Of a stretch of 64,000 nt of DNA, positions 1 to 52,800 are shown one piece after another. Position numbers and translations under genes: made by a program. The notes below the pieces were generated by a model, which worked only from the letters and a program-made list of their open reading frames with translations, made no database searches and was not told the DNA's origin. Positions within the stretch are counted from its first letter, which is position 1; each line of letters starts with the position of its first letter. This DNA comes from Planctomycetota bacterium (GTDB taxonomy: Bacteria; Planctomycetota; UBA1135; UBA2386): contig OZ245838.1 of assembly GCA_965228735.1 (NCBI GenBank), positions 5,632,001-5,696,000 on the forward strand, written 5' to 3'.

Positions 1-362
1 CCGACGTAGGTCGACACCGCGACCACCGTCACCGCCGAGGCGGCGAGGATGAACTTCGGCGCGATCATGAGCGCGGCTGCGGCCGCGACGGCACGCTGCG
101 CGCGGACCCACCAGCGTGGCTGACCGGTCGGCGGCGTCGCGTTCTCGTTGTCCGTCTCTGCTGCGGTCGCGGCGAGTGCGGCCTGGACGAACTCTTCGAT
201 CTGCGCGGCTGGCAGCGGTTCGTCGACGACGTCGTCGTCGGAGTCCTCGTCGAGCTGGGCGAGCATGCGCTCGACCTCGGCGAACTCCTCGGCTTCCGCG
301 GCGACCGCGACGTCGTGGCGCTCGCGCAACCAGCTCCAGAACTCTTCGTCCTTCAGTTCCAT
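1..362 (-). CDS. Putative anti-sigma factor or membrane partner of the adjacent ECF (runs off window start)
   Basis: ATG at 362 overlaps the ECF stop (ATGGAACTGA). Translates MELKDEEFWSWLRERHD..., an acidic N-terminus followed by a hydrophobic stretch (AVAAAAALMIAPKFILAASAVTVVAV). Absent from the ORF track because it is open-ended. Confidence 0.6.
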   Translation of the reverse strand, partial: MELKDEEFWSWLRERHDVAVAAEAEEFAEVERMLAQLDEDSDDDVVDEPLPAAQIEEFVQAALAATAAETDNENATPPTGQPRWWVRAQRAVAAAAALMIAPKFILAASAVTVVAVSTYV

Positions 363-1003
363 GAGGGCTGTCCTGTGGTCTCTCCCGGTCCGATGCCCTG
401 CTCGACGAGCAGGCCCTTCAGGGCCTTGCGCGCCATCGAGCGTGAGGCATAGATCGAGTTCTTGGTGGTCTTGAAGCGGTGCGCGAGTTCGCCGGCGTCG
501 GCGACGTCGCCCGTGAGCAGGTCCGCTTCGATGATGTTGCGTTGCAGGCGCGGCAGCTTCTTGATGCAGTTCCGCAGCACCTCGAGGAACCGGCTCGGCG
601 CCGGAGCCTCGTCCGTGTCGGGGTCGTCCGCCACCGCCGTGGCGGCCGCCGTGCCGAGCTCTTCGACCGCTTCGCCGCGGGTCTCCCAGCGCCGGCGTTT
701 GCGGTCGCGCAGGATCTCCACGCCGGCGTTGCGCGCGATCACGTAGAACCAGGCCCGCAGCGAGCCCTTCGCAGGGTCGTACGAGTCGGCGGCATTCCAG
801 GCCTTGTAGGTCGCTTTGCTCATTGCGTCGTCGAGTTCTGCTGCGTTGAGGGAGTCGCCGAAGCTACGGACGAGTCCGCCACGAACGCGGGCGCCATGCT
901 TGGTCAGGAGTTGCTGCAACCCACCCGATTTCCGCTCCACGATGAGGCGGATGATCTCCGCGTCACCGGAGGGCGCGGGGGGGTTGCTGGTCGAGGGGGA
1001 CAT
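353..1003 (-). CDS. ECF-family RNA polymerase sigma factor
   Basis: Region 2-like DDAMSKATYKAW...YDPAKGSLRAWFYVIARN; region 4-like LPRLQRNII...LAHRFKTTKNSIYASRSMARKAL. Confidence 0.85.
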   Translation of the reverse strand: MSPSTSNPPAPSGDAEIIRLIVERKSGGLQQLLTKHGARVRGGLVRSFGDSLNAAELDDAMSKATYKAWNAADSYDPAKGSLRAWFYVIARNAGVEILRDRKRRRWETRGEAVEELGTAAATAVADDPDTDEAPAPSRFLEVLRNCIKKLPRLQRNIIEADLLTGDVADAGELAHRFKTTKNSIYASRSMARKALKGLLVEQGIGPGETTGQPSWN

Positions 1004-1237
1004 CGCGAAGACCGCCGTGGTCTTCTCCTGGAAGGGTTACGCGTGGGCCTTAACGAAGGATGCCACACGCGGCGCGCCCGGCTCGGAACGGGACCGAAAT
1101 GGCGCGTCGTAACCGCATTTTTGGCGGGGACTTACCCATGCCGTCGCCAGATCCGTTCCGGTTGCGGGAAATCCAGATCGCTCTCTTCAGCGTAAACCGC
1201 GCGGATGCCGATCCTGCGATTACGTGAGGTGCGCGCC

Positions 1238-1804
1238 ATGATGGGACACATCAACAATCTGGTCGTCGAGATGGTCCGCGAATCGCTCGGGGCGGACGCG
1301 GTCGAGAAGTTGTTCGCGGAGTCGGGGCTGGAGCACCGGCGCTTTCAGCCCGAGGTCATCTACCCCGAAGAGGATTTCCAGGCGCTGTTCGCCGGGGCCC
1401 AAGCGGTCTTCGGTGTCGATGCTGCCGCGGCGGAGGAGGCGTTCGCCGGCTACTTCATGAAGCGGTCGCCCGAGATGTTCCCCGCGATCTTCGAGCAGGC
1501 GGGCTCGGCGCGCGGACTCATCGAGAAGATCCCGACGATCCACCGGAACTTCCCGGCGTCGGCGTCACAGGGCGATTATCGCGACAAGGTGGAGATCACC
1601 GAGTCGACGCCAGAGCGGATCACGCTGCGCTACATGTCGCCGAACCAACTGTGCGCCACGCTGTGTCACGTCGGCGGCATCTGTCTCGACTTCTTCCATG
1701 AGAAGGGCAAGGTCTACCATCGCTGCTGCGCGAAAGAGGGCGCCGAGTACTGCGAGATCGTCGTCGAGTTCCACGGCAAGAAGGAGCCGGTGGCGTCCGA
1801 ATGA
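1238..1804 (+). CDS. H-NOX (heme NO-binding) domain protein
   Basis: MMG start, Y-P-E-E-D motif, proximal His in PTIHRNF, YMSPN at the YxSxR position, C-terminal LC...HRCC...EYC; directly upstream of a histidine kinase. Confidence 0.85.
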   Translation: MMGHINNLVVEMVRESLGADAVEKLFAESGLEHRRFQPEVIYPEEDFQALFAGAQAVFGVDAAAAEEAFAGYFMKRSPEMFPAIFEQAGSARGLIEKIPTIHRNFPASASQGDYRDKVEITESTPERITLRYMSPNQLCATLCHVGGICLDFFHEKGKVYHRCCAKEGAEYCEIVVEFHGKKEPVASE

Positions 1805-2157
1805 CCCCTGAAGGTCAGGTTCACGGCAGCTCGCCCGCGTACTCGGAGGAGTTCGTGCGGGATCAGGTCCGTCACATCGAGGAGTGTCTGGCCCGTGCGT
1901 TGGCCGGAGACTTCGAGGCCGTCCGGCTGCCGGAGGGCGACACGATGTGGGGGAATCTCGCGATGCACGTCAACGTGGTCATCCACGCGACGCGCGCCGC
2001 ATTGACTCGAGCCGAACGGTTCGAGAAGGAGGCTGCCGCACTGCGGGCGGTATCGCAACCGGACGGAGCGGCCATGGCCGTGCGTTCGATTCGGCGGCCG
2101 GCGCGCGCTGCACGGCCCCAGGACCTCGTGGTGGACGATGAGCGAACGACCCGCTGA
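1801..2157 (+). CDS. Small protein homologous to the N-terminal input domain of the downstream kinase (HAMP-like helical domain)
   Basis: ATGA overlap with H-NOX; shares MWGNLAMHVNVVI.A.R.A..RAE with the next ORF. Confidence 0.75.
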   Translation: MTPEGQVHGSSPAYSEEFVRDQVRHIEECLARALAGDFEAVRLPEGDTMWGNLAMHVNVVIHATRAALTRAERFEKEAAALRAVSQPDGAAMAVRSIRRPARAARPQDLVVDDERTTR

Positions 2158-3187
2158 TCCCACCGCCGAGCCGCAGACCGCAGGTTCGGACGTCGGGTAC
2201 ACGCACGATTCCGTGCGGAGCAACATCCGGCAGATCGAGTCCGGGCTCACGAAGGTCCTGTTCGGCGACTACACGGCCGTCGTCAGCCTGGACGACGCGA
2301 ATCCGATGTGGGGCAACCTCGCGATGCACGTGAACGTCGTGATCAACGCGGCGCGCAACGCGATCGCGCGGGCGGAGGCCTCCGAGCGCGAGGCCGCGCT
2401 CGCCCGCGATCGCGCGATCGCAGCGGCCGAGGCCGAATCCAAGTTCCTCACGAACGTCACGCACGAGCTGCGCACGCCGATGGCGTCGATCAAGGCATCG
2501 GCCGAGATCCTGCGCGACTACGGCAAGGGTGACGCCGCGGTGTTCGATGAGTTCCTCGACGTGATGCTCACCGACAGCGATCGCCTCACCCGGCTCATCG
2601 AGAACGTGCTGACCCTGGGCAAGCTGCAGACCGACGAGACGGAGTGGCAGGTCGCCGAGACGCAGCTCGCCGATCTCTGCACCGAGATCGTGGAGTCGAT
2701 GCGCCAGCCTGCGCTCGGGCTCGGACAACACGTTCACCTGACGGTCGGCACCGACCTGCCGCGCTCCTTCCTCGATGCGGAGAGCATCAAGCAGGTCCTC
2801 GTGAACCTGCTGAGCAACGCGATGAAGTTCGGGCCCTCCGAGGCCGTGATCGAGGTCGAGGTCGGCTACGACGCGGCGACCGATCAGCTCGTCGTCGCGG
2901 TGATCGACCGCGGCCCCGGCGTCGCGGAGGCGGAACGCGAGGTGATCTTCCAGCGCTTCGAGCAGGCGACCGAGGACATCCTCACGCAGAAGCCGAACGG
3001 GACGGGCCTCGGCCTCGCGATCGCGAAGGAGATCGTCGATCGCCACGGTGGCCACATCGGAGTCGAGTCGGCGGTCGAGCAGGGCTCCCGCTTCTGGTTC
3101 ACGCTGCCCGTGCTGCGCGAGGCCGCGGCGTTCGATCGCATCCGCGAAGCGACGCCGTCGGAACCAGCAGCGCCATCGGCGTCCTGA
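2138..3187 (+). CDS. Soluble sensor histidine kinase (HisKA + HATPase)
   Basis: H-box THELRTPMASI, N-box NLLSNAMKF, G1 DRGPG, F-box IFQRFEQ, G2 GTGLGLAI; no TM segment seen. Confidence 0.95.
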   Translation: MSERPADPTAEPQTAGSDVGYTHDSVRSNIRQIESGLTKVLFGDYTAVVSLDDANPMWGNLAMHVNVVINAARNAIARAEASEREAALARDRAIAAAEAESKFLTNVTHELRTPMASIKASAEILRDYGKGDAAVFDEFLDVMLTDSDRLTRLIENVLTLGKLQTDETEWQVAETQLADLCTEIVESMRQPALGLGQHVHLTVGTDLPRSFLDAESIKQVLVNLLSNAMKFGPSEAVIEVEVGYDAATDQLVVAVIDRGPGVAEAEREVIFQRFEQATEDILTQKPNGTGLGLAIAKEIVDRHGGHIGVESAVEQGSRFWFTLPVLREAAAFDRIREATPSEPAAPSAS

Positions 3188-3253
3188 GTCGAAGCGATCG
3201 ACCGCCATCACCGGCATGTTCACGGTCATGGCGTCCGCCTCGATCGTTCGGCA

Positions 3254-3376
3254 CACCCGTACGGTACCTCACCCGTACGGTACCTGGTTCATGCTGCCGG
3301 CCGCGAGCCCGTTTCCTCGCGGGTGGCGCCTCGACGGCCGGCAGCATGAACCAGGTACCGTACGGCAAGGTACCGA
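3254..3376. repeat. REP/MITE-like element: perfect 31-bp inverted repeat with a 16-bp tandem direct repeat
   Basis: ccgtacggtacctggttcatgctgccggccg (3273-3303) and its exact reverse complement (3335-3365); cacccgtacggtacct at 3254-3269 and 3270-3285. Confidence 0.85.
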
Positions 3377-3785
3377 CGAGAACTCGTGGGTGACGATCGA
3401 CGGCTATCGGATGCAATCGGTCGCCGGCGGCGGCCACTGGGGCGGCGGCATGTTCATCAGCAGCCGCGACCACGCCCGCTTCGGTCTCCTCATGCTGCGC
3501 GATGGGCGCTGGGGCGACCGGCAACTGCTGTCGCAGGAGTGGCTCGCGCGGGCCCGGACACCGACGCCTCAGCAACGAACCTACGGCTACATGAACTGGT
3601 TCCTCAACGCCGACGCCGACCACAAGCGGTTCGCGTCGGCGCCGGTCGGCGACGTCTTCTTCCTCGGAGCCGGGACCAACATGATCTGGCTCTGCCCGTC
3701 GCGCGACATGGTCGTCGTCGTGCGCTGGCTCGAGGGCCGGCACGTCGACGCGTTCATCGGCAAAGTGCTCAGCGCGTTCGCGTGA
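3375..3785 (+). pseudogene. 3' fragment of a beta-lactamase-like serine hydrolase (5'-truncated)
   Basis: ENSWVTIDG.RMQSVAGGGHWGGGMFISSRDHARFGLLMLRDGRWGDRQLLSQEW...YGYMNW...GAGTNMIWLCPSRDMVVVVRW is typical of the C-terminal half. No SxxK-bearing N-terminus; begins right after the inverted repeat. Confidence 0.75.
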
Positions 3786-4506
3786 ACCGCGGCAGCGGCA
3801 GCAGCATCGGCACGCGGTCGCGGTAGTCGGTGTAGTCGCTGCCGTGGGCCGCGACGAGGCTGCGTTCTTCGATCTGCAGCGCGACGAGCGTGAACGTCGT
3901 GAACGTGAGGCCGAACACGAGACCGCCGTAGGTCATCGTGGGGATCGTCCAGAACGCGGTGAGGAAGCCGAGCATCAGCGGGTGCCGGACGAGGCTGTAG
4001 AGGCCTCGGGCCTTGAACGCGGGTGAGCGTGGCTCCTGACCGCGGAACGCCGCGAGCGTCTGCTTGACGCCGAACAGCTCGAAGTGGTCGATCTGGAACG
4101 ACGACAGCACGACGGTGAGCCAGCCGAGTGCGGAGACCGTCCACATGACCGTGGCCCACGGGCCGTCGATCTGCCAGACCACTTCCGGCAGCGGTCGCCA
4201 CTGCCAGTACATCAGCGCCAGCACGAGGCCGGTCACGATGACGAACGTGCTGCGCTCGATCGGCGCGGGAATGATGCGCGTCCACCGGCGCTTGAACCAG
4301 GCGCGCGCCATGATCCCGTGCTGAATGCCGAACACGAGGATCAGGCCGATGTTGGTCAGCACGGCTTCGAGCATCGGTGACTCGGGGCCACCGCGCGCCA
4401 CGGAGGTGGGCACGAAGACGTCGCTCGTGAAGCCGATGAGGTAGAGGAACGAGGCGTGGAACGCGGCGTAGGCCAGCAGGCCGTAGAACAGGTAGAAGTA
4501 GCGCAT
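3769..4506 (-). CDS. mddA: Methanethiol S-methyltransferase-like protein (MddA/ICMT family membrane methyltransferase)
   Basis: QHGIMAR.WFKR.WTRIIP..IERSTFV, WQWRP, IDHFELFGVKQ, LY..VRHPLMLGF..AFW..P.MT, EER.L...HG..Y..YR.RVPMLLP. Confidence 0.8.
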   Translation of the reverse strand: MRYFYLFYGLLAYAAFHASFLYLIGFTSDVFVPTSVARGGPESPMLEAVLTNIGLILVFGIQHGIMARAWFKRRWTRIIPAPIERSTFVIVTGLVLALMYWQWRPLPEVVWQIDGPWATVMWTVSALGWLTVVLSSFQIDHFELFGVKQTLAAFRGQEPRSPAFKARGLYSLVRHPLMLGFLTAFWTIPTMTYGGLVFGLTFTTFTLVALQIEERSLVAAHGSDYTDYRDRVPMLLPLPRFTRTR

Positions 4507-4534
4507 GATCGGATCTCGGTCGGACATCCGATTC

Positions 4535-4561
4535 GGCGCAGGTCAGCTGCGCGACCGGCCA
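4535..4561 (-). promoter_or_regulatory. Candidate ECF promoter TGGCCGG-N15-GCGCC upstream of the mddA-like gene
   Basis: Minus strand tggccggtcgcgcagctgacctgcgcc; same architecture as 5158-5184. Confidence 0.6.
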
Positions 4562-4584
4562 ACTCCCGGCCGGTTTTCACGCCG

Positions 4585-5100
4585 CTATTCGGCCGACAGG
4601 CGCTGGTAGAGCCACGCGCGGGCGAACGCCCACTCGCGTCGGACCGTCCGCTCCGAGATGTTCATCGTCGAAGCCGTCGCGACCTCGTCGAGGCCGGCGA
4701 AGAACCGCAGGCGCACGATCTCGGCCGCGCGCGCGTTGACGTCGGCGAGCGCCTGGATCGCCTCGTCGATCGCCATGACCTCGCCGAGGTCCGCCGTCGC
4801 GGCGACCTCGGCCACGTCGAGGGACAGTCGGTTGAGGTCAGGGCCGCCGCGCTTCTTCGCGCCGCGTTTCCTGGCGTGGTCGATGAGGATGCGCCGCATC
4901 GCCTCCGCGGCCATGCCGAAGAAGCGCCCTGGATCCTCGCGCACGCCTTCGAGCCGGTCGCGCATCGCCAGCCAGGCCTCGTTGACGAGAGCCGTCGCCT
5001 GCAGCGTGTGATCGCCGCGCTCACCGGCCATCTGGCGGCGGGCCAGGGCGCGCAACTTGTCGTGCACCTCGGAGAGTTGGGATCGTTCGGTCTCGCTCAC
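4585..5100 (-). CDS. ECF sigma factor, TIGR02999 type
   Basis: Signature HTLQATALVNEAWL, AMRRILIDHARKRGAKKRGG, VRLRFFAGL...ISERTVRREWAFARAWL. Confidence 0.95.
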   Translation of the reverse strand: MSETERSQLSEVHDKLRALARRQMAGERGDHTLQATALVNEAWLAMRDRLEGVREDPGRFFGMAAEAMRRILIDHARKRGAKKRGGPDLNRLSLDVAEVAATADLGEVMAIDEAIQALADVNARAAEIVRLRFFAGLDEVATASTMNISERTVRREWAFARAWLYQRLSAE

Positions 5101-5157
5101 GTGTTCTTGCCCTCGTTCACTGCCATCGTCGCCTCGATGCGCGATGGCAGCAGGGTA

Positions 5158-5184
5158 GGCGCAGGGTCGGCCCGCGCCCGGCCA
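5158..5184 (-). promoter_or_regulatory. Candidate autoregulatory ECF promoter TGGCCGG-N15-GCGCC
   Basis: Minus strand tggccgggcgcgggccgaccctgcgcc upstream of the ECF gene. Confidence 0.6.
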
Positions 5185-5323
5185 TGGTTTTCGCGGGTGT
5201 GTCGGCCGTGACTCAGAATATCCTAATTAGTCTTCGATACGCTACTTAACAGTATCGACCACGGCTTCGAGGCAGGCCGACGTCGAGCGCGCGGGCGCCG
5301 GGTTCGAGCGCCATGCGGCGCAC

Positions 5324-7618
5324 TCAGCGGCGCGCCTGCACGCGCAGGCCGCGGGTCGTGCGCATGCCGGTCGGGTTGACGCCCGGCTCGAGCAGCGCCC
5401 ACTGGAAGTGCAGATCGGCCGGCGGCAGGAAGCCCGGGATCGGCAGATCCATCGCGGCACGGCCGACGACGCTCGTCACGAAGAACGCGGTGGCGAGGTG
5501 CATCGGCGGGTTCACGTCGACGAGCAGCGTGCATCCCGGCATGCCGAACGGCTGCAGCGAGGTCGACGCGCCGCCGAGCGACGCGACGAGGAACGCGCTC
5601 GTGTAGGCCGGCGCCTGCGCGACCTGGACGCGGCCGAACTCGAAGCCGAGCGCGTGGTCCCCGAACCAGCTGATGTTGGCCGTCGGGTGGCACGCGGTGC
5701 CGTAGATCGACGTCGACATCTGCTCGTAGGTGACGTAGTTGCCCATGAGCAGGTTGGTCGACGTGTTGTTGTCGACGTGGAACGCGACGGCGAAGCGTTC
5801 GTTGTCCTCGTCGTACGACACGCCGCCCGGAATCGGCTGGAAGCCCGGCACGTCGTAGAGCACGACGTGCTCCGTCCAATTGCCGTCGTAGCCGACCTTG
5901 CTCATGAGCAGCTTCTCGGAGCCCGCGTTGGTCGTCGCGTACGTCGTGACCCAGTGCGAGCGCGACTCGAGGTCGTAGGCGACGCTGCCCGGGATCTGAC
6001 CCGCGAGCGTGCCGCCGTAGAGGCTCCGCGACGGCGCCGGGAAGCTCGCGTGGACCGCGTTGTGCGGCCAGTCGATCCGCCGCGCGCGGATGTACGTGGA
6101 CCGGATGCCGGTCGGCTTGTTCAAGGGGCTCTGGTTGTGACCGTAGGTCACGAGGTAGCGCCCATCGGCGCCGGCCACGTCGGGCCCGACCTCGTGGAGG
6201 TTGCTGTTGTCGATGTGGCGGGCGTAGCTGAAGCCGCCGAACGCGCCCGGCGTGCGCTGCACGATGACGTTCCACTTGCCGGTGCTCGAGTTGTCGTGCT
6301 GCTGCCAGACGACGACCCACGAGAACTGGACGCCGCCCTCGGAGGTCTGGTTGACCGCCGGCCGTTCTTCGTCGGGGCTGACGGCGCCGAAGCCGAAGAC
6401 CGAACCGACGGGCGCGCCGTTGGAGCTGATCGCGGTGTCGATCTTGAGGCCGACGACCTGGCTGTGTGCCGTCTCCTGGAACGGCGCGGCCGGCTCACGC
6501 TGGAAAACGAGCAGCGCGACCGTGCCGGGCACCGACGACCTCGTGCCGCCGACGTCCGGACGCCAGTCACTCGTCCCCGCCTGGTAGGGCACCGAGCTCA
6601 CGCCGGTGCGCAGCGACAGGTCACTCTTGCCGTGGGTGTGCCAGCGCACGCGGCGGTCACCGCTCGCGAAATCGCGCTCGAAGACGGTGATCGTCTTGCC
6701 GGCACCGCTGCCGCCGACGCCCGCGATCTGGCCGTGCTGCGAGTTCCACGATGACGTGAGATCGTTGAAGACGGGGACACCGAGGCCGCTGAAGCCGTCG
6801 TCGTAGCGCACGCCGAAGATATCGATGTCGCTCGCCGACGCCGCGCTCGAGTAGATGACCCACACGTTGCGGGTGATCTGCTCGCCGTCGCGGTAGATGT
6901 CGACGTCCTGCGCGATCGGCACCAGCTCCAGGAGCTCGTTGCTCAGGACCGGGTCGACGACGATCGGGAACGTCGCCTGCTCGAGCCACTGGCCCGGGAG
7001 CCGCAGCTCGATCTGGCCGTTCTCGACGGCCGTCGTCATCTCGGCCACGTCGCCATTGCCGTCGATCGCGATGGCGTGGCCGTAGGTCACGGTCGCCACA
7101 CCCGCGTCGTCGAAGAACGTCACCGGACCGTGGGCGGCGCTGCGGTTCGTCGTCGTGAGATTGCCGCCGATCGAGCCACGAACGACGAGGTCGCCGGCGA
7201 TCGTCGGGCGGTCCGCGATCACGAACGTCTGGTGCAGGCCCTCCGCGAGCACGTCGTAGGCCTCGATGACGCCGCCGAGATCGTACTCGTAACGGAAGTC
7301 ACCGGCCCGGCGTGCGTGCGAACGACCGTTCGTGAGCTCGGTGCCGCCGACGCGGACGGCGGTCGTGCGCCAAGACAGTTCGCGGTTGGTCGCGACGTCC
7401 ATGCCGGCGTAGGGCACGAACGTCATGCCGCCGTGGAACGAGGCCTTGTAGTTCTTGCCGGCGGCCCAGGTGCCGTATGCGCCGCCGACCGGGTCGGCGT
7501 CCGAGGTGTGGATCGGCACGCGCAGCTCGGAGCGGTCGAAGTTCTGGGCGGCGAGGCCGGTCGACAACGCGCCGGCGAGCGCCATGCAAGTGAGAGCGGA
7601 GGAGACGGAGAGATTCAT
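5324..7618 (-). CDS. Large secreted protein with the shared C-terminal domain
   Basis: Signal peptide MNLSV...GLAA-Q; N-terminal beta domain ending FPIVVDP; C-terminus YGTAC...FGMPGCTLLVD...LPIP...FQWALLEPGVNPTGMRTT. Confidence 0.85.
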   Translation of the reverse strand: MNLSVSSALTCMALAGALSTGLAAQNFDRSELRVPIHTSDADPVGGAYGTWAAGKNYKASFHGGMTFVPYAGMDVATNRELSWRTTAVRVGGTELTNGRSHARRAGDFRYEYDLGGVIEAYDVLAEGLHQTFVIADRPTIAGDLVVRGSIGGNLTTTNRSAAHGPVTFFDDAGVATVTYGHAIAIDGNGDVAEMTTAVENGQIELRLPGQWLEQATFPIVVDPVLSNELLELVPIAQDVDIYRDGEQITRNVWVIYSSAASASDIDIFGVRYDDGFSGLGVPVFNDLTSSWNSQHGQIAGVGGSGAGKTITVFERDFASGDRRVRWHTHGKSDLSLRTGVSSVPYQAGTSDWRPDVGGTRSSVPGTVALLVFQREPAAPFQETAHSQVVGLKIDTAISSNGAPVGSVFGFGAVSPDEERPAVNQTSEGGVQFSWVVVWQQHDNSSTGKWNVIVQRTPGAFGGFSYARHIDNSNLHEVGPDVAGADGRYLVTYGHNQSPLNKPTGIRSTYIRARRIDWPHNAVHASFPAPSRSLYGGTLAGQIPGSVAYDLESRSHWVTTYATTNAGSEKLLMSKVGYDGNWTEHVVLYDVPGFQPIPGGVSYDEDNERFAVAFHVDNNTSTNLLMGNYVTYEQMSTSIYGTACHPTANISWFGDHALGFEFGRVQVAQAPAYTSAFLVASLGGASTSLQPFGMPGCTLLVDVNPPMHLATAFFVTSVVGRAAMDLPIPGFLPPADLHFQWALLEPGVNPTGMRTTRGLRVQARR

Positions 7619-7704
7619 GACAGTGTTCTGCAGTGGGGATCTGGTCCAAGAGGAACGACCCGGCGCGGTGTGCACACGCGGCAGCGGCACGGGTCGCTCG
7701 CAGA

Positions 7705-7795
7705 GGCGCATTGCGCGATCCCGGCCGGACAGGTTGCTCGGGAATCCGGGTTGGCGTCGCGATTTCGTTGGCCGGCGCACCGCCCGCAACGCGCC
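7705..7795. promoter_or_regulatory. Divergent pair of candidate ECF promoters
   Basis: Minus strand TGTCCGG-N15-GCGCC (7731-7705) and plus strand TGGCCGG-N15-GCGCC (7769-7795), both followed by TCT. Confidence 0.55.
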
Positions 7796-7841: not shown

Positions 7842-9209
7842 ATGATGCGACTCTCCGCCGTTCTCTCCGTTCTCGTCCTCGCCGCCTCGCCGGCCGTCGC
7901 GCAGGAGTGGCGTCTCGAAACGCCCGTTGCGTCCCCGATCGACCGCGCGTCGCACAGCGTCGTCTGTGATGCGGCGCGCGACCGCCTCGTCATGTTCGGC
8001 GGCTACAACTGGAACCTCGACGTGCACTACGACGAGACGTGGGAGTACGACGGTGCGACGTGGGCACAGCGGCACCCTCTGAGCGCGCCGGCCCCGCGCA
8101 AGCGCGCCGGCATGTGCTACGACTCCCGGCGCGGGGTCGTCGCCCTCTTCGGCGGCCTGCGCGACAGCTTCTGGGGGCCGACGACCTGGTTCGGTGACAC
8201 GTGGGAGTACGACGGAACGAACTGGACGCAGGTCCCGGTCTCGGGTCCCGTGCCCTCGGCGCGCTACTGCGATCTGACGTTCGACTCGGCCCGCGGTGTC
8301 GCGGTCCTCGTCGGTGGCACCGGCCCGACCGGTCGTCAGTCCGACACGTGGGAGTTCGATGGGACGACGTGGACGCAGCGCCACACGCCGACGACGTTGC
8401 CGCTGCGGCCGAGCTGGGCGACCGCGTTCGATGCGCGCCGCGGCGTGGTCGTCGCGCACCCCGAGTACGTCTACGGCAATCTCGGTGCGTGGGAGACGTG
8501 GGAGTACGACGGCACCGACTGGTCGCTCGCGACGTTCACGCTGTCGCCGGGCGCGTGCCCGTCGCCGGCCATGACGTTCGATGCGCAGCGCGGCAAGGTC
8601 GTGCTCGTCGGCGGTGCCTTCGCCGGCGTGCCCGACACCTGGGAATACGATGGCGTCGATTGGCAGCGCAGCGGGGTGAATCAGCTGACGGATGGCCTGA
8701 CGGGGCAAGCCCTCGCGTTCGACGCGGGCACCGGCAGTGTCGTGCTCTTCGGCGGCGAGAAGATCCAGGGGATCTTCGTCGTCGGCACCAACGAGACGTT
8801 CCGCTACGGGACGTTCGCGGGGTTCGACGTGATCGGCACGAGCTGCGGTCCGAACCGGCCGGCGCCGTTGCCGGCTCTCGCGGCGCCGAACGAGACGCCG
8901 CAACTCGGGGGCACGTTCGACGCCGTCGTTGACGATCTCATGTCCGCGGACCTGCCGGTCCTCGTCCTCGGTTTCGCGACCGCGAACAACGGGCTCGCCA
9001 ACCTCGGTCTGCCGGGTTGCACGCAGCACGTGCGCGTCGATGCGACGCACTTCCTGGCATCGCAAGGAAACAGCGCATCGTGGCAGCTCACGGTGCCGGC
9101 GCAGCCGGTGCTGCAGGGGGTGCAGCTGTTCGCGCAGGTGCTCGTGCTCGACGGCAACGCGCAGCCCGCCGCCGTCACCAACGGCGCGCGCTTGACGATC
9201 GGGCTGTAG
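7842..9209 (+). CDS. Secreted kelch-like beta-propeller (TWE(Y/F)DG repeats) with the shared C-terminal domain
   Basis: Signal peptide ...AVA-Q; about six blades with five TWE(Y/F)DG.xW motifs; C-terminus IGTSC...PQLG...GLPGC...VPAQPVLQGVQLFAQVLVLD...TNGARLTIG. Confidence 0.9.
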   Translation: MMRLSAVLSVLVLAASPAVAQEWRLETPVASPIDRASHSVVCDAARDRLVMFGGYNWNLDVHYDETWEYDGATWAQRHPLSAPAPRKRAGMCYDSRRGVVALFGGLRDSFWGPTTWFGDTWEYDGTNWTQVPVSGPVPSARYCDLTFDSARGVAVLVGGTGPTGRQSDTWEFDGTTWTQRHTPTTLPLRPSWATAFDARRGVVVAHPEYVYGNLGAWETWEYDGTDWSLATFTLSPGACPSPAMTFDAQRGKVVLVGGAFAGVPDTWEYDGVDWQRSGVNQLTDGLTGQALAFDAGTGSVVLFGGEKIQGIFVVGTNETFRYGTFAGFDVIGTSCGPNRPAPLPALAAPNETPQLGGTFDAVVDDLMSADLPVLVLGFATANNGLANLGLPGCTQHVRVDATHFLASQGNSASWQLTVPAQPVLQGVQLFAQVLVLDGNAQPAAVTNGARLTIGL

Positions 9210-12988: not shown

Positions 12989-13336
12989 CTACTCCTCGTT
13001 CAGTCCTTCGAGGGTCGATGGCAGGTCGTGGGGCCGCGGTCGCTGCGCCGCCCCCCGCATGCCGATTATCCTGACCTTGCGGCGATCGTCGTCGATCGAG
13101 AACAGCAGGAGCTGGCTGCCCACCGCGAGTTCGCGAACCTCGTAGGCCCGATAGTTGTCTTCCGCAGCGAGGCGCGCTCGTCGGGGGAACCGTTCGAGAG
13201 AATGGAACGCGCGCCACACGCTTTCGAGCCAGCGCTCGGCATTGCGCGGCTGCTGCTGCTCGATCGCGATGTAGCGCGCCTGCTCGGCGATCGCCGCTCG
13301 CGCACTGGCGGTCAGCTCGACCGCGTATTCGCTCAT
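12989..13336 (-). CDS. Type II toxin, RelE/ParE superfamily
   Basis: Y.VELT.SA...I.....YIA.....NAERWL.......SLERFPRR...VREL.VG...LLFSID....VRII.MR; ATGA-coupled to the antitoxin. Confidence 0.9.
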   Translation of the reverse strand: MSEYAVELTASARAAIAEQARYIAIEQQQPRNAERWLESVWRAFHSLERFPRRARLAAEDNYRAYEVRELAVGSQLLLFSIDDDRRKVRIIGMRGAAQRPRPHDLPSTLEGLNEE

Positions 13337-13626
13337 CGTTTGAGTTTCAGGCCGAGTTCGTCGGCGATCTCGCGCAGCGCTGCCTTGGCCGGTTGCGTCC
13401 GGCCCTCCTGGATGTCCTTCATGCTGCGATCGAGGAGCGCCAGGCTGTCGAGGAGCTCGGCTTTGTCGGCGAGTGCGTCGTAGGCTTCCGGGCTCATGAC
13501 CACGGCATCCGTTTCGCCGTTCGTAGTGATGTAGAGCGGGCGGCCGGTCTCCCTGACCTGTTCGAAGTGATCGCGCAGGTGTTGGCGGTGTTCCGTGAAG
13601 CTGGTGATATCGGTGCTGCGGGCCAT
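13333..13626 (-). CDS. Type II antitoxin, Phd/YefM family
   Basis: ITSFTEHRQHL...FEQVRETGRPLYITTNGETDAVVMSPEAYD. Confidence 0.9.
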   Translation of the reverse strand: MARSTDITSFTEHRQHLRDHFEQVRETGRPLYITTNGETDAVVMSPEAYDALADKAELLDSLALLDRSMKDIQEGRTQPAKAALREIADELGLKLKR

Positions 13627-15117: not shown

Positions 15118-15168
15118 CGTGCCTGCGGGAGCGCTGTTGCGCTCCGCCGGCGGACTCGAAATCCGCCG

Positions 15169-17192: not shown

Positions 17193-20100
17193 CTACTCGA
17201 TCACGATCCGCGCCGTGCCGCCGCCGCCCGCGGGCACCGTGCACGTCGTCGTTCCGCGGCTGTCGTAGTAGCCGCTCACCGACAGCGAGTGCGTGCCGAC
17301 CGGCAGCGGCACGGTGAACTCGAGGTGGTGGGTGAACGTGCCGTAGAACGGTTGGGTGAGCTTGTGCTGCACCGTCCGGCCGGCCGCGTCCTTCGCGATG
17401 AGCTTGCCCGACCACGAGCTCAGGTGGCGGGGGAAGTCGGCCGGCAGGTCGATGCTCAGCCTGGTCGGCGCGTGTTTGGTGAGCGTCGCGGTGGCGCGCG
17501 TCTCGTCGCCTTCCAGCCGCACCTTCTGCGGCGCCGCCCACGCGTCGTTCGACCACGCGCGCAGCGTGTACTCGCCGCGGTAGAGCGTCCGCGACCGCCA
17601 CGTGCCGTCCTTCTGCCGGCGCAGAGCCCAGGTGCTGGTCGACTTGCCGGGGCCGATGAGCTCGACGCGCTTCGGCGGCGAGGTGTCCGCGTCCGCGACG
17701 ATCGTGACGATCGCGCGCCCGAGCTCTTGGAGCACGATGTCACCGAGCGCGATCGTGCCGCCGCCGCGGGCATCGATCGGCGGCAGGGTGAGCCACGGAC
17801 GATTCGGCGCGACGGCGTAGGCGTGATAGCGCCCGGGCGGCAGGTCCTCGGCGGCGAACGCGCCGGTCTCCGGGTCGGTGCGGAACTCGTTGCCCCAGGC
17901 GCTGCCGAACGCGCCCTGCAGGCGGACGTCCGAGTCCGGGACCGGCTTGCCCGCGGCATCGACGATCGCGCCCTGGATCCGATGCATCGCGCGCACGTGA
18001 TCCGGCACGCGGATCCGGTGCTCCATGCCGACCGCGAGCGGTGGCGTGACGAGGCTCGGCCAGCGCGAGAAGTCCTGCCACTTGTTCTCGTGCTTGCCGA
18101 GCGGCGGCGAGACCGCGAGGCGCACGAACGAGCCCGTGGGATAACGGAAACCGGACGAATCCGACGGCAGGCGACCGTCCTCGCCAGTCAACGAGCCGCC
18201 GCGCGGATACTCGCTGCCCGGCGGGATGACGCCGATCTGCCAGCCGGCGAGCGGCTGACCTTTGCTGTCGACGAGCTCGAACTCGACGGGCGAGAGCGAT
18301 GCGCGTTGCGGGTTCCAGGTCGCGACCTCGCCTGGCGCGAGGTCGATGATGCGATTCTCGCAGTGCTCGCACTCGAGCTGGTAGCGGCCCGCGACGAGAC
18401 CGTCGATGACGAAGCGGCCGTCCTTGCCGGAGCGCGACCACGTCTCGAGGAACGGCAGCCCGTGGATGCCTTCGGGGCGGTCGCGGGCGACGACGTTGGT
18501 GCCGCTCAGCGGCTGGCCCTGCACGTTCGTCAGCTGGCCTTCGACGCGTGCACCGCGCGTCATCTTGAAGTCGAGCACGATGCCGCCGTCGCCGCCGTGC
18601 GAGAACCGCAGGTGGCCGCGGCGCGTGACGCCGTCCTTCGTGTGGATCCCGGAGAGCGCGTGGTTGCCGCGGCCGAGTGCGCCGATCGCGAACTTGCCTT
18701 CGGCGTCCGTGATGACGAACTGCGGCTGCCTGGGGATGCTGGTCAGCTGCACGAACGCGAGGTGCGCGCCCTGCAGCGGGTTGCCGTCCTCGTCGTGCGC
18801 CGTGCCGTGGGCGGCGAAGCCCGCTCCCGGCAGCTTCAGCGTCTGCACGCGACGGTCACCGACGGCGCCATCCGCGTTGATGATGCGACTCGGCAGGTGC
18901 CCGTCGGCCCACGCGCGCAGCTGACCGTTGGTGCCGATGTGGCGGCGCACGATCTTGCCCTCGGCGTCGGTGCGGCCGAACGGCGACAGCATCTGGTGCG
19001 GCTGACTGCCGTGGGAGGACTCGACGAGCGCGCCGGCGACCGGTTTGCCGTCGGCGTCGACGACGCGCACCTCGAGCGTCATGCCGCGCTCGATCACGAG
19101 GCGGCAGGTCTCCGGCTCGGTCGGCGGGCGCACGAAGTCCGGCCACCGGATCGTGTCGCGGGCCCCGGTGCCGAGCACGAACACCTCGTGGTAGCCGGGC
19201 CACGGCAGCGCGACCTCGAGCTTGCCGTCGGTGTCCGTCTCCCAGCGTTGCAGCGTCTTGTCGAGCAGGATACCGATCGGCACGCCGGCCGCGGGTTCGT
19301 CGCCTTCTTCGTAGACGACCTCGAACACGACGGTCGGACGCTGCGGGTCGAACGCGGGTCGTTCGTTCTGCGGCGGCGAGGGCATTGCTTCGGTCGGGGA
19401 GTCGTTCACCGCGACGAGTTGTCGGTCGGGCGACGCGCGGCCGAGTTCGGCCCTGGGCGTGGTGGCGGTCGTCGACGCCTGGTGGGGGAGTGGGGTCGGG
19501 TCGTCGCCGACGAACAACGGAATGAGAACGGCGAGAGTTGCCGCGATGGCGGTAGCGATCATCGTTTCGAGCCTCCAGCTCGTGAAGAACAGCGACGATG
19601 ATCCAGCAGCGGTTGCGGGCAGCGAGCCGAGCACGTTGCCGCGCACGGCGGCGAGCACGCGATCCGGGGCGAGCAGCGTCACGGAGACCGCGGTCAATCC
19701 CACGAAGCCCGCCGGCAGCTTGCTGCGCAGCCGTTCGAGCCCGCGCACGACCTGCGTGCGGACCGTGCCCGCGGGCCGGCCGAGCGCGTCACCGATCTCG
19801 CGCGCCGAGAGGCCGTGCTGCAGGTGCAGCACGATCACCTCGCGGAACGGCGGCGGCAGCTCCTGCATCGCCGCGGTCGCGGCGCTGCTGAACTCCCGTT
19901 GCTCGGCCGCGCCGGCTGGCGACTCGCCGCCCGCGACGACCGAATGCAGCGTCGCTGCATCGGGCCCCCGTTGCTTACGAGTCTGCCGCCGGTGCTTGCG
20001 CACGTGATTGGCGAGGATGCCGAGCAGCCAGGGTCGCACGGCGCGCCCCTCGTCCCACTGCTCCGCATCCTCGATCGCGGTGAGAAACGTCGCCTGCAGC

Positions 20101-20252
20101 GCATCGTGCACGAGCTCGCGGTCCCCGTTGCCGAGGTGGGCCGCGACCCGCAGCAACTCCGGCGCGGTCAGGTCGAACACCGCGGCCAGGGCCTCAGGTT
20201 CGCCGGTGCGCCGGAAGTGTGCGAAGCGTTCGTTCTCGTCGATTCGAGTCAT
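17193..20252 (-). CDS. ECF sigma factor fused to TM segment and carboxypeptidase-regulatory-like beta-sandwich repeats
   Basis: DALQATFL...PWLLGILAN; LPPPFREVIVL...GTVRTQVVRGLERLR; hydrophobic segment; repeated G.V.D..G.P..GA.V...TD.EG.F. Confidence 0.9.
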   Translation of the reverse strand: MTRIDENERFAHFRRTGEPEALAAVFDLTAPELLRVAAHLGNGDRELVHDALQATFLTAIEDAEQWDEGRAVRPWLLGILANHVRKHRRQTRKQRGPDAATLHSVVAGGESPAGAAEQREFSSAATAAMQELPPPFREVIVLHLQHGLSAREIGDALGRPAGTVRTQVVRGLERLRSKLPAGFVGLTAVSVTLLAPDRVLAAVRGNVLGSLPATAAGSSSLFFTSWRLETMIATAIAATLAVLIPLFVGDDPTPLPHQASTTATTPRAELGRASPDRQLVAVNDSPTEAMPSPPQNERPAFDPQRPTVVFEVVYEEGDEPAAGVPIGILLDKTLQRWETDTDGKLEVALPWPGYHEVFVLGTGARDTIRWPDFVRPPTEPETCRLVIERGMTLEVRVVDADGKPVAGALVESSHGSQPHQMLSPFGRTDAEGKIVRRHIGTNGQLRAWADGHLPSRIINADGAVGDRRVQTLKLPGAGFAAHGTAHDEDGNPLQGAHLAFVQLTSIPRQPQFVITDAEGKFAIGALGRGNHALSGIHTKDGVTRRGHLRFSHGGDGGIVLDFKMTRGARVEGQLTNVQGQPLSGTNVVARDRPEGIHGLPFLETWSRSGKDGRFVIDGLVAGRYQLECEHCENRIIDLAPGEVATWNPQRASLSPVEFELVDSKGQPLAGWQIGVIPPGSEYPRGGSLTGEDGRLPSDSSGFRYPTGSFVRLAVSPPLGKHENKWQDFSRWPSLVTPPLAVGMEHRIRVPDHVRAMHRIQGAIVDAAGKPVPDSDVRLQGAFGSAWGNEFRTDPETGAFAAEDLPPGRYHAYAVAPNRPWLTLPPIDARGGGTIALGDIVLQELGRAIVTIVADADTSPPKRVELIGPGKSTSTWALRRQKDGTWRSRTLYRGEYTLRAWSNDAWAAPQKVRLEGDETRATATLTKHAPTRLSIDLPADFPRHLSSWSGKLIAKDAAGRTVQHKLTQPFYGTFTHHLEFTVPLPVGTHSLSVSGYYDSRGTTTCTVPAGGGGTARIVIE

Positions 20253-49843: not shown

Positions 49844-52800
49844 CTACCGGCGCCGGGCGAGTCGTTCGAGCGCCTTGGTGATCACCTCGTCCTCGATGTC
49901 GATCACGATCTCGGGGTCGCCGTCGCCCGACAGCGAGACGCGTTGCGGCGAGACCGGGTTGCGGCGCCAGCTCGTGAAGCGTTCGTCGACATGGACCCGG
50001 TGCTTGGCGCCGTGGACCTTCACCCCGACCGAGAACATGCCGGGCGCCGAGATCGGCACCGTGCCGCGGCCGGTCGCGGCGTCGACGATCGTGCCGCTGC
50101 CGGTGCCGAGGAGCGCTTGCAGCCGGGTGGTGCGCGTATGGACCGCGAGCTCGCGCCGGCCGCGTCGCCGCAGCCTCACGAGCGCGGATTCACGTTCGCC
50201 TTCGCGCGGCTCGAGCTGAATGTCGACGCGACAACCGGCGAACCGCGCCGCGACGTTCGGCGCGAGCCGAACGGGCACCTCGAGGCACGGCTCGAACGTG
50301 ACCTGCACCGAATCCGCGCTCACGGCGGGGCGGCGCCACAGCCGGTGGCCCGGCATCGCGGCGACGACGTCGACCGGGCCCGGGCCGACGAGCAGGTCGG
50401 CGCGGCCGTTGGCATCGAACATCAACCCGTCGCGCGCGGTCGTCGCATCGCCGGCCGGCGCCGTGAACGCACCGCCCGCCGTCACCGGTTGTGGTCCGCT
50501 CGGCAGCGGCGCGACCTGGACCCGCAGAATGCGGATGTGGGGGCGCAGGTCGATCGGATCGAGGCGGGGATCGGGCAGAGCGCCGGGTTCGACCAGCACG
50601 CCGTCGAGACTGACGACTGGCGCGGGCATGCCCGGTGCGCGGATCTCGACGCGGTAGTTGCCGGGCGGCAGCGCCGGCCAGGAGAACGTCGCCGTGTCCC
50701 CGCGGCAGTCGACGAGCCTGGCCGTCTCGCGGCGCGGTTCACCGTCGTCGGATTCGTCCGACGTTCGCGGCAGCGACGCGCCGTCGTGCCGGACGACGCG
50801 ACAGTCGATCGAGCGCGCGTGCGCGGCGGGCGCGATCACTTTCGCGGTGAGCGGCTGCCCGCGTTCGATTCGGACCGTGACGTCGTCGTCGCCGGGTGCC
50901 GTCTCGATCGGTTGCGGCACGATGAAGTGCCCGGCGGCGGCGACCCGAACGCGAACCCGTTCGGCCGTGGTCGAGCCGCGCAACGTGAACGTCGGGTCGT
51001 AACCGGGATGGACGGTGACGGAGCCGAGCCAGTGCCAGCCCCTGGTCTCGTGCGGAACCTCGACGACGACTTTGACGGGTGGACCGCTCCAACGGCTGTC
51101 ATCGATGTCGAGGGTGCCCGCGACGACGACGTCGTCGCCGGTCAGGGTGAGCGTGCCGAGGTCGTGCAGTTCTCCTGCGGCCGCGCGTTCGAGCTCGAAC
51201 GTGCACTGCTGCTGGCGTTCGCCATGTTGCGAAGGTTGGCTCTCGAGCTGGATCGTGCCCGCGAGTGCGCCACCGACGGGCACGACCCAGCGGACGTGCC
51301 CCTCGGCGTCGGTCACGGCCTGGTGGAGACAGCGGCGACGGCCGGCCTTCGCGTTGATGCGGACGCTCCGCTCGGCTGCCGGCGTCCCGTCCGGGAACGC
51401 GAGCCTGGCGCGGACCTCGCACGGCTCGAGGTCGGTGGTCATCACGACCCGGAGCTCTTCGCCGGGCTCGGTCGGACCCTGAATCTGGCGTTCGGCCCGG
51501 AACGAGGGCGTTCGGATCCGAGCCGACACGTCCAGGGTCTGATTCAGCTCGACTTCGGGAACGTGCAGCGTGCCGGGCTCACTCCGGGTCCAGGTGGAGG
51601 CGCCGTGAAGCTCCGACGGATGGCCGAGCGGGATCGGCGCGACCCACGCGTCGATCTCGCTCGCGACGGGCCGACCCGACGGCGACCGGAGCTCGACCGT
51701 GACGGTGCCGGTCGCCGGGTAGCGCAGCTCGGTCACGCGGTGGAGCGCCGACTCGAGATCGAGACGCACATAGGGCGACTGACCGACCGTCCGCGGCCGC
51801 ACATGGAAGCGGTCGCGGTCGATGCGCGCCCGCAGCCGGATGATGCCGTTCTCGTCCGATGGCCCGGCCTTGCCGCCATATCCGCACTGCTCCGGCACGA
51901 GCGTGCCGGTCGCCCCGTTGGAGTACTCGATCAGCTTGCCGGCGACCGGGGCGCCGCCGTCGTCGACGAGTCGGATGCGCAGCCAGCGCGCGGGCCCGAG
52001 CCAGAGCGTCGCGGGTTGGCCCGCGATGAGGTCCGTCGGTCGGATGTGCTCCCGGACCGTCCGATCGCCCAGCGCCGCGAGCACCCGGTTGCCGGTCAAG
52101 GGCAGTCGGATGCGCGCGCGGCCGTCGGCGTCGGTCTTCGCGTGCTCGCCTTCGCGCCGCAAGAACGCATCCGACGTCCAGTTCTCCTGGAGCGCGCGGT
52201 CGCGGCGGGCCGCCGGGGACCGGAAGTCGATGCCGACCGGCAGGAAGAACAGATCGGCGTTCGCCACGGGCGCGCCCGATTCGTCGTCGAGCACGAGCAC
52301 GTCGACGGGGACGGTCGGCTCGTCGGTGACCGGAAAGCGATGGCCGCGGTCGGCGGTCGCGTTCGCATTGACGACCGGCGTCGTGACGGCTTCGCGGTCG
52401 CGTTCGCCGGTCTCGTCGACGCGGCCCTCGCCCGTGGCCATCGCACCGACCCGTTCCGTCGTCGGCGCCGCGGCGGGCTGTTCGGGTGAGCGCCAGAGAT
52501 TCGCGGTCGCGACCCAGGCAGAGAACGCCAGCAGCATCAGGGCGGCGGCGACGAGCAACTTCTTCGGCGTCGACATGGCGAGCAGGGCCAGGGCAGGGGC
52601 GGGGGCAGGCGTCGGCAGTGGATCCGTCGCCAGCAGGAGCAGCGGCCCGGCCCACGCGTCGCGGCGGCCGCCGCTCCTGGCATCGAGTCGGGTGCGCAGG
52701 TGATCGAGCCCGCGCTTCACGCGGGAGCGCACGGTCGCGACGGCGATGCCGTGGCGGGCGGCGATCTCCTCGCTCGACAGACACTCGTAGAAGCGCGCGA

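What the first reader, a model, noticed from the sequence alone, without database searches (positions are those of the whole stretch)
4535..7795. Four-copy bipartite motif TG(G/T)CCGG-N15-GCGCC defining a candidate ECF regulon
Seen: the motif lies in sense orientation with identical spacing upstream of four consecutive genes: mddA-like (4561-4535), the TIGR02999 ECF itself (5184-5158), and both divergent CTD proteins (7731-7705 minus, 7769-7795 plus). The first two also share CGCG and CCT. A weaker copy (AGTCCGC-N15-GCGCT, 15156-15130) precedes the second kelch protein. Known: ECFs often autoregulate through fixed-spacing -35/-10 motifs. Inference: this ECF co-controls a methanethiol-methylating enzyme and secreted CTD proteins.
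Basis: partly seen in the sequence, partly recalled or inferred. Interest (0 to 1): 0.72.

Follow-up and report, generated by a model that had tools for sequence, protein, structure and literature searches.

The report
Promoters of a kinase-orphaned sigma factor
Four copies of a two-part DNA signal likely mark the promoters read by the neighbouring alternative sigma factor, whose usual partner kinase gene has been deleted from this genome while the sigma gene stays intact, so a kinase encoded elsewhere probably switches on these genes, which include a predicted maker of the gas dimethyl sulfide.

Summary
The four copies are real. Of 1371 runs of four consecutive genes in the genome, only this one shares a bipartite upstream key. 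Relatives refine the motif to TGGCCGG-N14-TGCGCC(T). It tracks one clade of ECF43-like (TIGR02999) sigma factors: 19 of 22 loci versus 4 of 58 other paralogue loci, with the same geometry as ECF41 promoters. The base at -35 position 5 varies with the sigma-4 residue that aligns to E. coli sigmaE R171. The fifth copy is not a site. Here that gene is deleted from its start codon to 47 nt before its stop. Contigs from 8 of 8 runs laid bridge the deletion. A second kinase-less allele differs in the sigma gene by 11 synonymous and 1 non-synonymous change. The orphan sigma is thus probably still used, most likely phosphorylated by one of two related kinases elsewhere that have no sigma neighbour. 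No RNA data exist here.

The parts
4535..4561 (-). Site 1, predicted -35 TGGCCGG / -10 TGCGCC promoter of mddA
   Evidence: 20.5 bits; conserved upstream of mddA in relatives; the second allele changes only spacer bases
3769..4506 (-). mddA, predicted methanethiol/H2S S-methyltransferase (245 aa; an in-frame ATG at 4527 is a possible alternative start)
   Evidence: NF045656 291 bits, cut-off 270; start agrees with homologues
4585..5100 (-). ECF43-like sigma factor (TIGR02999, PF07638), 171 aa; QATA with Thr36 in sigma-2.2; recognition helix RTVRREW with Arg154
   Evidence: 11 synonymous vs 1 non-synonymous change between two kinase-less alleles
5097..5143 (-). 3' remnant of the deleted kinase gene; its stop overlaps the sigma GTG start; it contains a 9-codon ORF (5126-5097)
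   Evidence: 27 of the last 48 nt match the G002 kinase end without gaps; both allele differences in the short ORF are non-synonymous
5143..5145 (-). Deletion junction: the first two letters of the kinase start codon joined to the remnant
   Evidence: same offset from the motif as the kinase ATG in G001, G002 and G013; bridged by contigs in 8 of 8 runs laid
5152..5157 (-). TAnnnT hexamer 6 nt before the former kinase start; likely housekeeping leaderless -10 for basal expression (inferred)
   Evidence: present in G000, G001, G002 and G013; TAnnnT peaks 6 nt before starts genome-wide, 165 vs about 15 at distant offsets
5158..5184 (-). Site 2, predicted promoter of the former kinase-sigma operon
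   Evidence: 22.2 bits; precedes the kinase in G001, G002, G013, G034, G026, G085, G084 and G019
5324..7618 (-). Exported 764-aa protein: N-terminal beta domain, predicted beta-propeller, shared C-terminal domain
   Evidence: no Pfam or NCBIfam hit; model pLDDT 79 and propeller fold hits; C-terminal domain E 9e-23
7705..7731 (-). Site 3, predicted promoter of the 764-aa protein
   Evidence: 15.5 bits; matching sites in G001, G013, G003, G034, G085, G026 and G084
7769..7795 (+). Site 4, predicted promoter of the kelch-repeat protein, back to back with site 3
   Evidence: 14.4 bits; matching site before the orthologue in G001
7842..9209 (+). Exported kelch-repeat protein with the shared C-terminal domain
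   Evidence: PF24681; C-terminal domain E 5e-30
15130..15156 (-).
   Evidence: -4.7 bits; lies in two hairpins

Best explanation
The four motifs are likely -35/-10 promoters read by the adjacent ECF43-like sigma factor, whose partner kinase gene is deleted here, and a related kinase encoded elsewhere probably activates it. Shown: motif, conservation, co-segregation with one sigma clade, the deletion, purifying selection on the sigma gene after the deletion. Inferred steps: (1) a nested housekeeping -10 gives basal sigma expression; (2) the sigma is inactive until Thr36 is phosphorylated, as for EcfP and EcfK; (3) one of two Hanks kinases with no sigma gene beside them (G000:C1:3538425-3541352, membrane + TPR; G000:C1:6454672-6456948) does this in trans; (4) the holoenzyme binds TGGCCGG through sigma-4 (Arg154 reading the fifth base pair) and opens at TGCGCC; (5) it transcribes mddA, itself (positive feedback), two exported beta-propeller proteins and probably a distant class I SAM methyltransferase (site at G000:C1:5322587). 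About 0.85 for the promoter identity, about 0.5 for trans-phosphorylation given that.
For: Post-hoc null 1 of 1371. A matrix from 18 sites in 8 relatives (none from G000) shows conserved T at positions 22 (16 of 18) and 28 (14 of 18), which were not in my search pattern. In 15 loci picked by sigma similarity alone there are 24 hits at spacer 15 (18 intergenic) vs 1-9 (0-5 intergenic) at 11 other spacers. All 4 genome-wide strict matches in G001 lie in this locus. A site of at least 12 bits lies near 19 of 22 sigmas of 57% identity or more (12 of 15 without training loci and G000) and near 4 of 58 others, including 0 of the 16 other G000 paralogues; the 22 form one branch (SH-aLRT 91). Targets differ between loci (mddA, AurF-like, SAM methyltransferase, kinase, exported proteins) while the sigma is the constant. 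Geometry 7-n16-4 (TGGCCGG-n16-CGCC) equals the mapped ECF41 promoter TGTCACA-n16-CGTC (PMC3426412). Arg154 aligns with sigmaE Arg171, which reads the G opposite the fifth base C; Met at that position goes with loss of that C (PMC1540707). Here Arg goes with C in 30 of 32 sites and Ala/Met with A in 5 of 6. Kinase loss: best G000 match to the G001 kinase is 42% over 936 aa vs 67% between G001 and G002. Selection: 11 synonymous, 1 non-synonymous, binomial P about 3e-6. No acidic residue was gained in the G000 sigma. The two candidate kinases are 65-71% identical to the lost kinase's orthologues in the kinase domain, the next best 53%, and nest in their clade; they keep VALK, HRD and DFG.
Against: No transcription start, expression or binding data. 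The exact pattern is not enriched genome-wide. The related loci are kin, and motif and sigma could be co-inherited; the covariation counts rest on few lineages, include training sites, and dropped loci under 60% G+C; one TGGCAGG site lies beside an Arg sigma (L134). 3 of 22 clade loci have no site, and the L130 site counted lies over 3 kb away and is doubtful. The tree is the quick one and the branch is under the tool's 95 threshold. G017 has a 15-bit site before mddA but no sigma of this clade at E 1e-48. The published predicted ECF43 motif (GTC / CAG, PMC7826278 supplement) does not match. Nothing shows that either candidate kinase acts on this sigma. EcfK T51A still complements from a multicopy plasmid (PMC13147305), so Thr36 need not be the only switch.
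Confidence: 0.7

Rival explanations
1. The motifs are this sigma's promoters, but the orphan sigma works without phosphorylation. Losing the kinase turned a switch into low constitutive expression of mddA and the exported proteins.
For: The deletion left the promoter, the nested TAnnnT and the stop/start overlap intact. 4 of 22 clade sigmas lack an adjacent kinase. EcfK T51A is functional when overexpressed (PMC13147305).
Against: QATA and Thr36 are unchanged, and the 3 amino-acid changes private to G000 add no new negative charge. EcfP is described as intrinsically inactive (PMC8999054). Closely related kinases without a sigma neighbour are present.
Confidence: 0.2
2. The regulon is a silent relic: the promoters were real in the ancestor, and sigma and sites survive only because the kinase loss is recent.
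For: The kinase is gone and nothing shows expression. Conservation of the promoter cores between the two alleles is not significant alone (0 of 28 core positions changed, 17 of 301 non-coding; P about 0.2).
Against: Both alleles carry the same junction, yet the sigma gene has 11 synonymous to 1 non-synonymous change while the kinase remnant ORF has 2 of 2 non-synonymous. The G000 sigma branch is short, not long.
Confidence: 0.1
3. The motif is bound by another factor (a different sigma or a transcription factor encoded elsewhere) and merely travels with the locus.
For: G000 has 44 sigma-like matches to the family model, one at window 353-1003. G017 has a site without a detected clade sigma.
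Against: The sites follow the sigma clade across different gene neighbourhoods. The motif is directional and non-palindromic. Its fifth base varies with the sigma's own recognition-helix residue. The sigma at 353-1003 was seen beside the locus only in G001 among the loci listed.
Confidence: 0.07
4. A chance pattern in 69% G+C DNA, or an assembly artefact.
For: No genome-wide excess of the exact pattern.
Against: 1 of 1371 runs; conserved cores with free spacers in relatives; contigs of 8 runs from 8 studies bridge the junction.
Confidence: 0.01

Closest known systems
ECF43 sigma / Hanks kinase pairs: EcfK-PknS (Xanthomonas citri), EcfP-PknT (Vibrio parahaemolyticus); passages of PMC13147305 and PMC8999054, supplement part 13 of PMC7826278
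   Same: PF07638 domain; QATA with Thr in place of the acidic sigma-2.2 motif (group consensus QTTA); no anti-sigma gene; in relatives a one-TM kinase with TPR repeats next door
   Different: Kinase upstream rather than at +1 in relatives, and deleted here; host probably Planctomycetota (inferred from nearest named hits) while the group was described as Proteobacteria only; motif differs from the predicted GTC/CAG; targets are mddA and exported proteins
ECF41 promoter TGTCACA-n16-CGTC (PMC3426412, passages)
   Same: 7-bp -35 starting TG, 16-nt spacer, 4-bp -10 CG.C; very small local regulon
   Different: Different bases; ECF41 is controlled by a fused C-terminal extension that this sigma lacks
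E. coli sigmaE-4 / GGAACTT complex (PMC1540707, passages)
   Same: Arg at the 171-equivalent goes with C at the fifth -35 position; Met goes with another base
   Different: No central AA tract here; residues at the 172, 175 and 176 equivalents differ (R, A, F)
MddA methanethiol S-methyltransferase (NF045656; PMC5607357, passages)
   Same: Above the model's curated cut-off here and in 5 of 5 related proteins scanned
   Different: Activity untested; I saw no report of ECF control of mddA in the listing
Planctomycete kinase-linked groups ECF59 and ECF217 (PMC7826278 supplement passages)
   Same: Planctomycete ECFs beside kinases
   Different: ECF217 motif reported as not conserved; the PF07638 domain is described for ECF43, not for these groups

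Membership tests
ECF-dependent promoter | Bipartite, directional, fixed-spacer motif upstream of genes in sense orientation | tested here: met
ECF-dependent promoter | Co-segregates with one sigma group and precedes its own operon | tested here: met
   19 of 22 vs 4 of 58 loci; tree; kin are not independent
ECF-dependent promoter | Transcription start a few bases downstream of the -10, dependent on the sigma | not testable with these tools
   no RNA holder listed
ECF43 | Pfam Sigma70_ECF (PF07638) domain | tested here: met
   143 bits; TIGR02999 171 bits
ECF43 | Acidic sigma-2.2 motif replaced by a Ser/Thr motif | tested here: met
   Q34-A-T36-A aligns with DVPD of sigmaE
ECF43 | Co-encoded one-TM Hanks kinase with TPR repeats | tested here: not met
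   deleted in G000; an adjacent kinase is present in 18 of 22 clade loci; TM and TPR checked for G001 and G002
ECF43 | Described range Proteobacteria; predicted motif GTC (-35) / CAG (-10) | tested here: not met
   PMC7826278 supplement; hence filed as ECF43-like
ECF43 | Phylogenetic placement with EcfK and EcfP | not tested
   those sequences were not fetched
ECF43 | Activation by direct phosphorylation | not testable with these tools
   inferred from PMC13147305 and PMC8999054
ECF41 | C-terminal extension of about 120 aa | tested here: not met
   the protein ends 10 residues after the sigma-4 helix motif
MddA | NF045656 above cut-off | tested here: met
   291 vs 270 bits
MddA | S-methylation of methanethiol or H2S | not testable with these tools
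   needs an assay

The most novel reading that the evidence does not exclude
Phosphorylation-gated ECF sigma factors are not wired one-to-one to their neighbouring kinase. In this lineage the cognate kinase can be deleted (or parted from the sigma) repeatedly, and the sigma, still under selection, is taken over by sigma-less kinases of the same clade, so a conserved regulon that includes the dimethyl-sulfide-forming enzyme MddA is re-plugged to new surface sensors. One recognition-helix residue sets the -35 base and insulates it from the 16 paralogous sigmas.
Probability: 0.35. Interest if true: 0.72.

Novelty: new variant of a known kind. Interest (0 to 1): 0.52.

Why it matters
It gives a specific, testable promoter for a clade of kinase-gated sigma factors whose published motif prediction is weak, with a one-residue specificity rule that matches a solved structure. 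It offers a natural kinase deletion in which the sigma stays under selection, which makes kinase-sigma cross-talk directly testable in a lineage with dozens of such kinases (71 counted in G000). It also points to a regulator of mddA, linking envelope signalling to sulfide/methanethiol methylation in marine-associated bacteria. The general idea (kinase-linked ECF with a local promoter motif) is known and has been noted elsewhere in this scan.

Tried and rejected
Exact-pattern genome scan: no excess at spacer 15. Fifth copy: rejected. Unseeded motif search over flanks of 80 diverse family loci from GTDB: only AT-rich noise, so no family-wide motif is shown; the matrix gave a mild excess there, 28 hits at spacer 15 vs 8-14. 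G276 (another family): no site, but its 3.3-kb contig ends inside the kinase, before the expected promoter. SAM methyltransferase homologues: a site in only 2 of 21, G000 and the closest homologue. No RNA holder listed. The sigma found no solved-structure match by sequence and none at E 0.001 by fold, so the sigmaE correspondence rests on a sequence alignment. Atlas search of the 764-aa protein: one weak unnamed hit. 16S against plasmids gave no useful placement. A loose contig end at 5159 is not in G000. The sigma-70 consensus scan found no promoter. No complex prediction was run (kinase with substrate). The careful tree did not finish; the quick one is used. Wiegand et al. 2020 is not held. 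Ten paper searches showed no report of this motif or of an orphaned ECF43 in the listings and passages I saw; subscription papers, motif logos and the cut part of the PMC7826278 supplement were not seen and could hold it.
Full report
Observation. The genes behind the sites are mddA (NF045656, 291 bits against a cut-off of 270), a TIGR02999/PF07638 sigma factor, a 764-aa protein without family hits and a kelch protein. Both of the latter begin with signal-like sequences and end in a domain that an iterated profile finds in about 270 called proteins of the genome, at the C-terminus in 234 of 255 domain hits. Across the 7.19-Mb genome the exact pattern is no commoner at spacer 15 (24) than at other spacers (13-31), so any regulon is small. 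The local cluster is not chance: using my own gene calls (5332 genes), only 1 of 1371 runs of four consecutive genes shares any bipartite key, and it is this run.

Conservation. Upstream of mddA homologues in relatives the two boxes are kept while the spacer varies. I built a matrix from 18 sites in 8 relatives, none from G000. The core columns are circular because a pattern picked the sites, but T at position 22 (16 of 18) and T at 28 (14 of 18) were not in that pattern, which refines the motif to TGGCCGG-N14-TGCGCC(T). The four window sites score 14.4-22.2 bits and the fifth copy -4.7; the fifth lies in two hairpins. In G000 the matrix gives 8 intergenic hits of 17 at 18 bits or more at the true spacer, against 0-2 at 11 other spacers. 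The best outside hit (24 bits, G000:C1:5322587) precedes a class I SAM methyltransferase; a homologue sits inside the locus in G002, and 2 of 21 homologues, G000's and the closest, carry a site. Among the 21 mddA homologues with 35% identity or more and enough flank (1 dropped), 12 have a site: G000, 7 training sites and 4 new ones.

Which protein reads it. I fetched 15 loci by sigma similarity alone: 24 hits at the true spacer, 18 intergenic, against 1-9 and 0-5 at other spacers. In G001 all 4 strict matches of the genome lie in this locus; in G013 2 of 3, G002 1 of 1, G034 2 of 4, G003 1 of 5. Adding 40 of the paralogue loci listed and all 17 family loci of G000, a site lies near 19 of 22 sigmas of 57% identity or more and near 4 of 58 others (one a training locus), and near none of the 16 other G000 paralogues. 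Six of the 22 were training loci; without them and G000 it is 12 of 15, one doubtful. The 22 form one branch in a quick tree (SH-aLRT 91). Kin are not independent, but the genes behind the sites differ from locus to locus; mddA is near 10 of the 22. The geometry TGGCCGG-n16-CGCC is that of the mapped ECF41 promoter TGTCACA-n16-CGTC (PMC3426412, passages). The recognition helix aligns without gaps to E. coli sigmaE, Arg154 to Arg171. In the sigmaE-DNA structure Arg171 reads the G opposite the fifth base C, and sigmas with Met there lose that C (PMC1540707, passages). Here sites near Arg sigmas have C in 30 of 32 cases and sites near Ala/Met sigmas have A in 5 of 6 (loci under 60% G+C dropped, few lineages). 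This is a hint of direct contact, not proof. An unseeded search over 80 diverse loci found no family-wide motif.

The missing kinase. In G001 the order is kelch gene, two back-to-back sites, 772-aa protein, site, 1016-aa kinase, sigma, site, mddA. G002 and G013 also have site, kinase, sigma. The kinase has one membrane helix and TPR repeats. G000 has no orthologue: the best match is 42% over 936 aa, against 67% between G001 and G002. Where the three relatives have the kinase ATG, 12 nt after the -10, G000 has AT followed by 47 nt that match the 3' end of the G002 kinase (27 of 48 nt, ungapped) and end in a stop overlapping the sigma start. Two runs hold a second allele with 31 substitutions in 1.4 kb and the same junction. 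In the sigma gene 11 changes are synonymous and 1 is not (P about 3e-6 under a simple neutral model); both changes in the remnant ORF are non-synonymous; 4 fall in the spacers of sites 1 and 2 and none in their cores, which alone is not significant (P about 0.2). So selection has acted on the sigma after the kinase was lost. Three more of the 22 clade sigmas (G011, G022, G063) also lack an adjacent kinase; their best full-length kinase matches are 46-55%, and G063 is only 62% complete.

Mechanism. The sigma has QATA where other ECFs have acidic residues, the hallmark of ECF43, whose members are activated by phosphorylation of that Thr (PMC13147305 and PMC8999054, passages). G000's sigma has gained no new acidic residue. 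Two G000 kinases nest among the lost kinase's orthologues (65-71% kinase-domain identity, the next 53%), keep their catalytic motifs, and have no family sigma beside them; one has the same membrane-plus-TPR build. Bacterial Hanks kinases commonly have several substrates (PMC13147305). I therefore favour trans-phosphorylation, with a kinase-independent sigma as the main rival. A TAnnnT box 6 nt before the former ATG fits the genome's leaderless starts (peak 165 vs about 15) and would supply basal sigma; this is inference. The output would be MddA (named for S-methylating methanethiol to dimethyl sulfide; PMC5607357, passages), two exported beta-propeller proteins and probably the distant methyltransferase. 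The inducing signal is unknown.

Placement. It works like EcfK/PknS and EcfP/PknT but fails the adjacent-kinase, range and published-motif features (PMC7826278, main-text passages, supplement part 13 and passages), so I file it as ECF43-like. The host is probably a planctomycete, inferred from nearest named hits. I did not read Iyer 2020, Bayer-Santos 2018 or Staron 2009 (known to me through citing papers) and Wiegand 2020 is not held; PMC11032199 was seen in passages only. Earlier notes of this scan describe comparable promoters in other genomes; a look-up for orphan or deleted-kinase cases returned nothing. My reading was formed before I saw them.

Verdict. A real, well-supported candidate ECF promoter and small regulon, with an unusual feature: a cleanly deleted cognate kinase and a sigma still under selection. 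New variant of a known kind; interest 0.52.

Noticed in passing
window 4500-4590 (-): The sigma-mddA gap folds into strong hairpins (z -4.1) that include the -35 of site 1; the inverted repeat is not seen in relatives. It may limit read-through from the sigma gene.
   Followed up: partly
window 5200-5260: An AT-rich patch with short inverted repeats between the 764-aa gene and site 2; 9 of the allele differences fall in 5200-5262. G001 has an AT-rich inverted repeat at the same place.
   Followed up: no
window 353-3187: A second ECF sigma (353-1003, -), a haem-NO-binding protein (1205-1804) and a histidine kinase (2138-3187), syntenic in G001: an H-NOX signalling cluster beside mddA.
   Followed up: no
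window 3048-3785 (+): A beta-lactamase-like/serine hydrolase-like gene (label from recall) that is about 364 aa in G001 but appears shortened here, with a repeated segment around 3100-3370.
   Followed up: no
L129:5171-6082, L131:553-1662, L138:11994-12905: In three relatives the motif precedes an AurF-like di-iron protein gene placed before the kinase (weak PF11583 hits in 2 of 3): another recurring regulon member.
   Followed up: partly
G000 genome: The 764-aa protein has about 13 further full-length paralogues; none appeared behind a site of 15 bits or more.
   Followed up: partly
L191:4161 (G001): A 17-bit TGGCAGG-type site about 300 nt upstream of the G001 counterpart of candidate kinase G000:C1:6454672.
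   Followed up: no
window 12989-13626 (-): Two small overlapping genes that look like a ParE/RelE toxin and Phd/YefM antitoxin pair (labels from recall).
   Followed up: no
window 17193-20252 (-): An ECF sigma fused to a long C-terminal region with carboxypeptidase-regulatory-like repeats; similar fusions recur in the window (49844-53143).
   Followed up: no
L130 (G022:C1, upstream of the sigma at 1405433): The orphan sigma of G022 has a site with a spacer one base longer directly upstream (seen by eye); one search also shows 5 intergenic hits at spacer 16, so the spacer may tolerate +1.
   Followed up: partly
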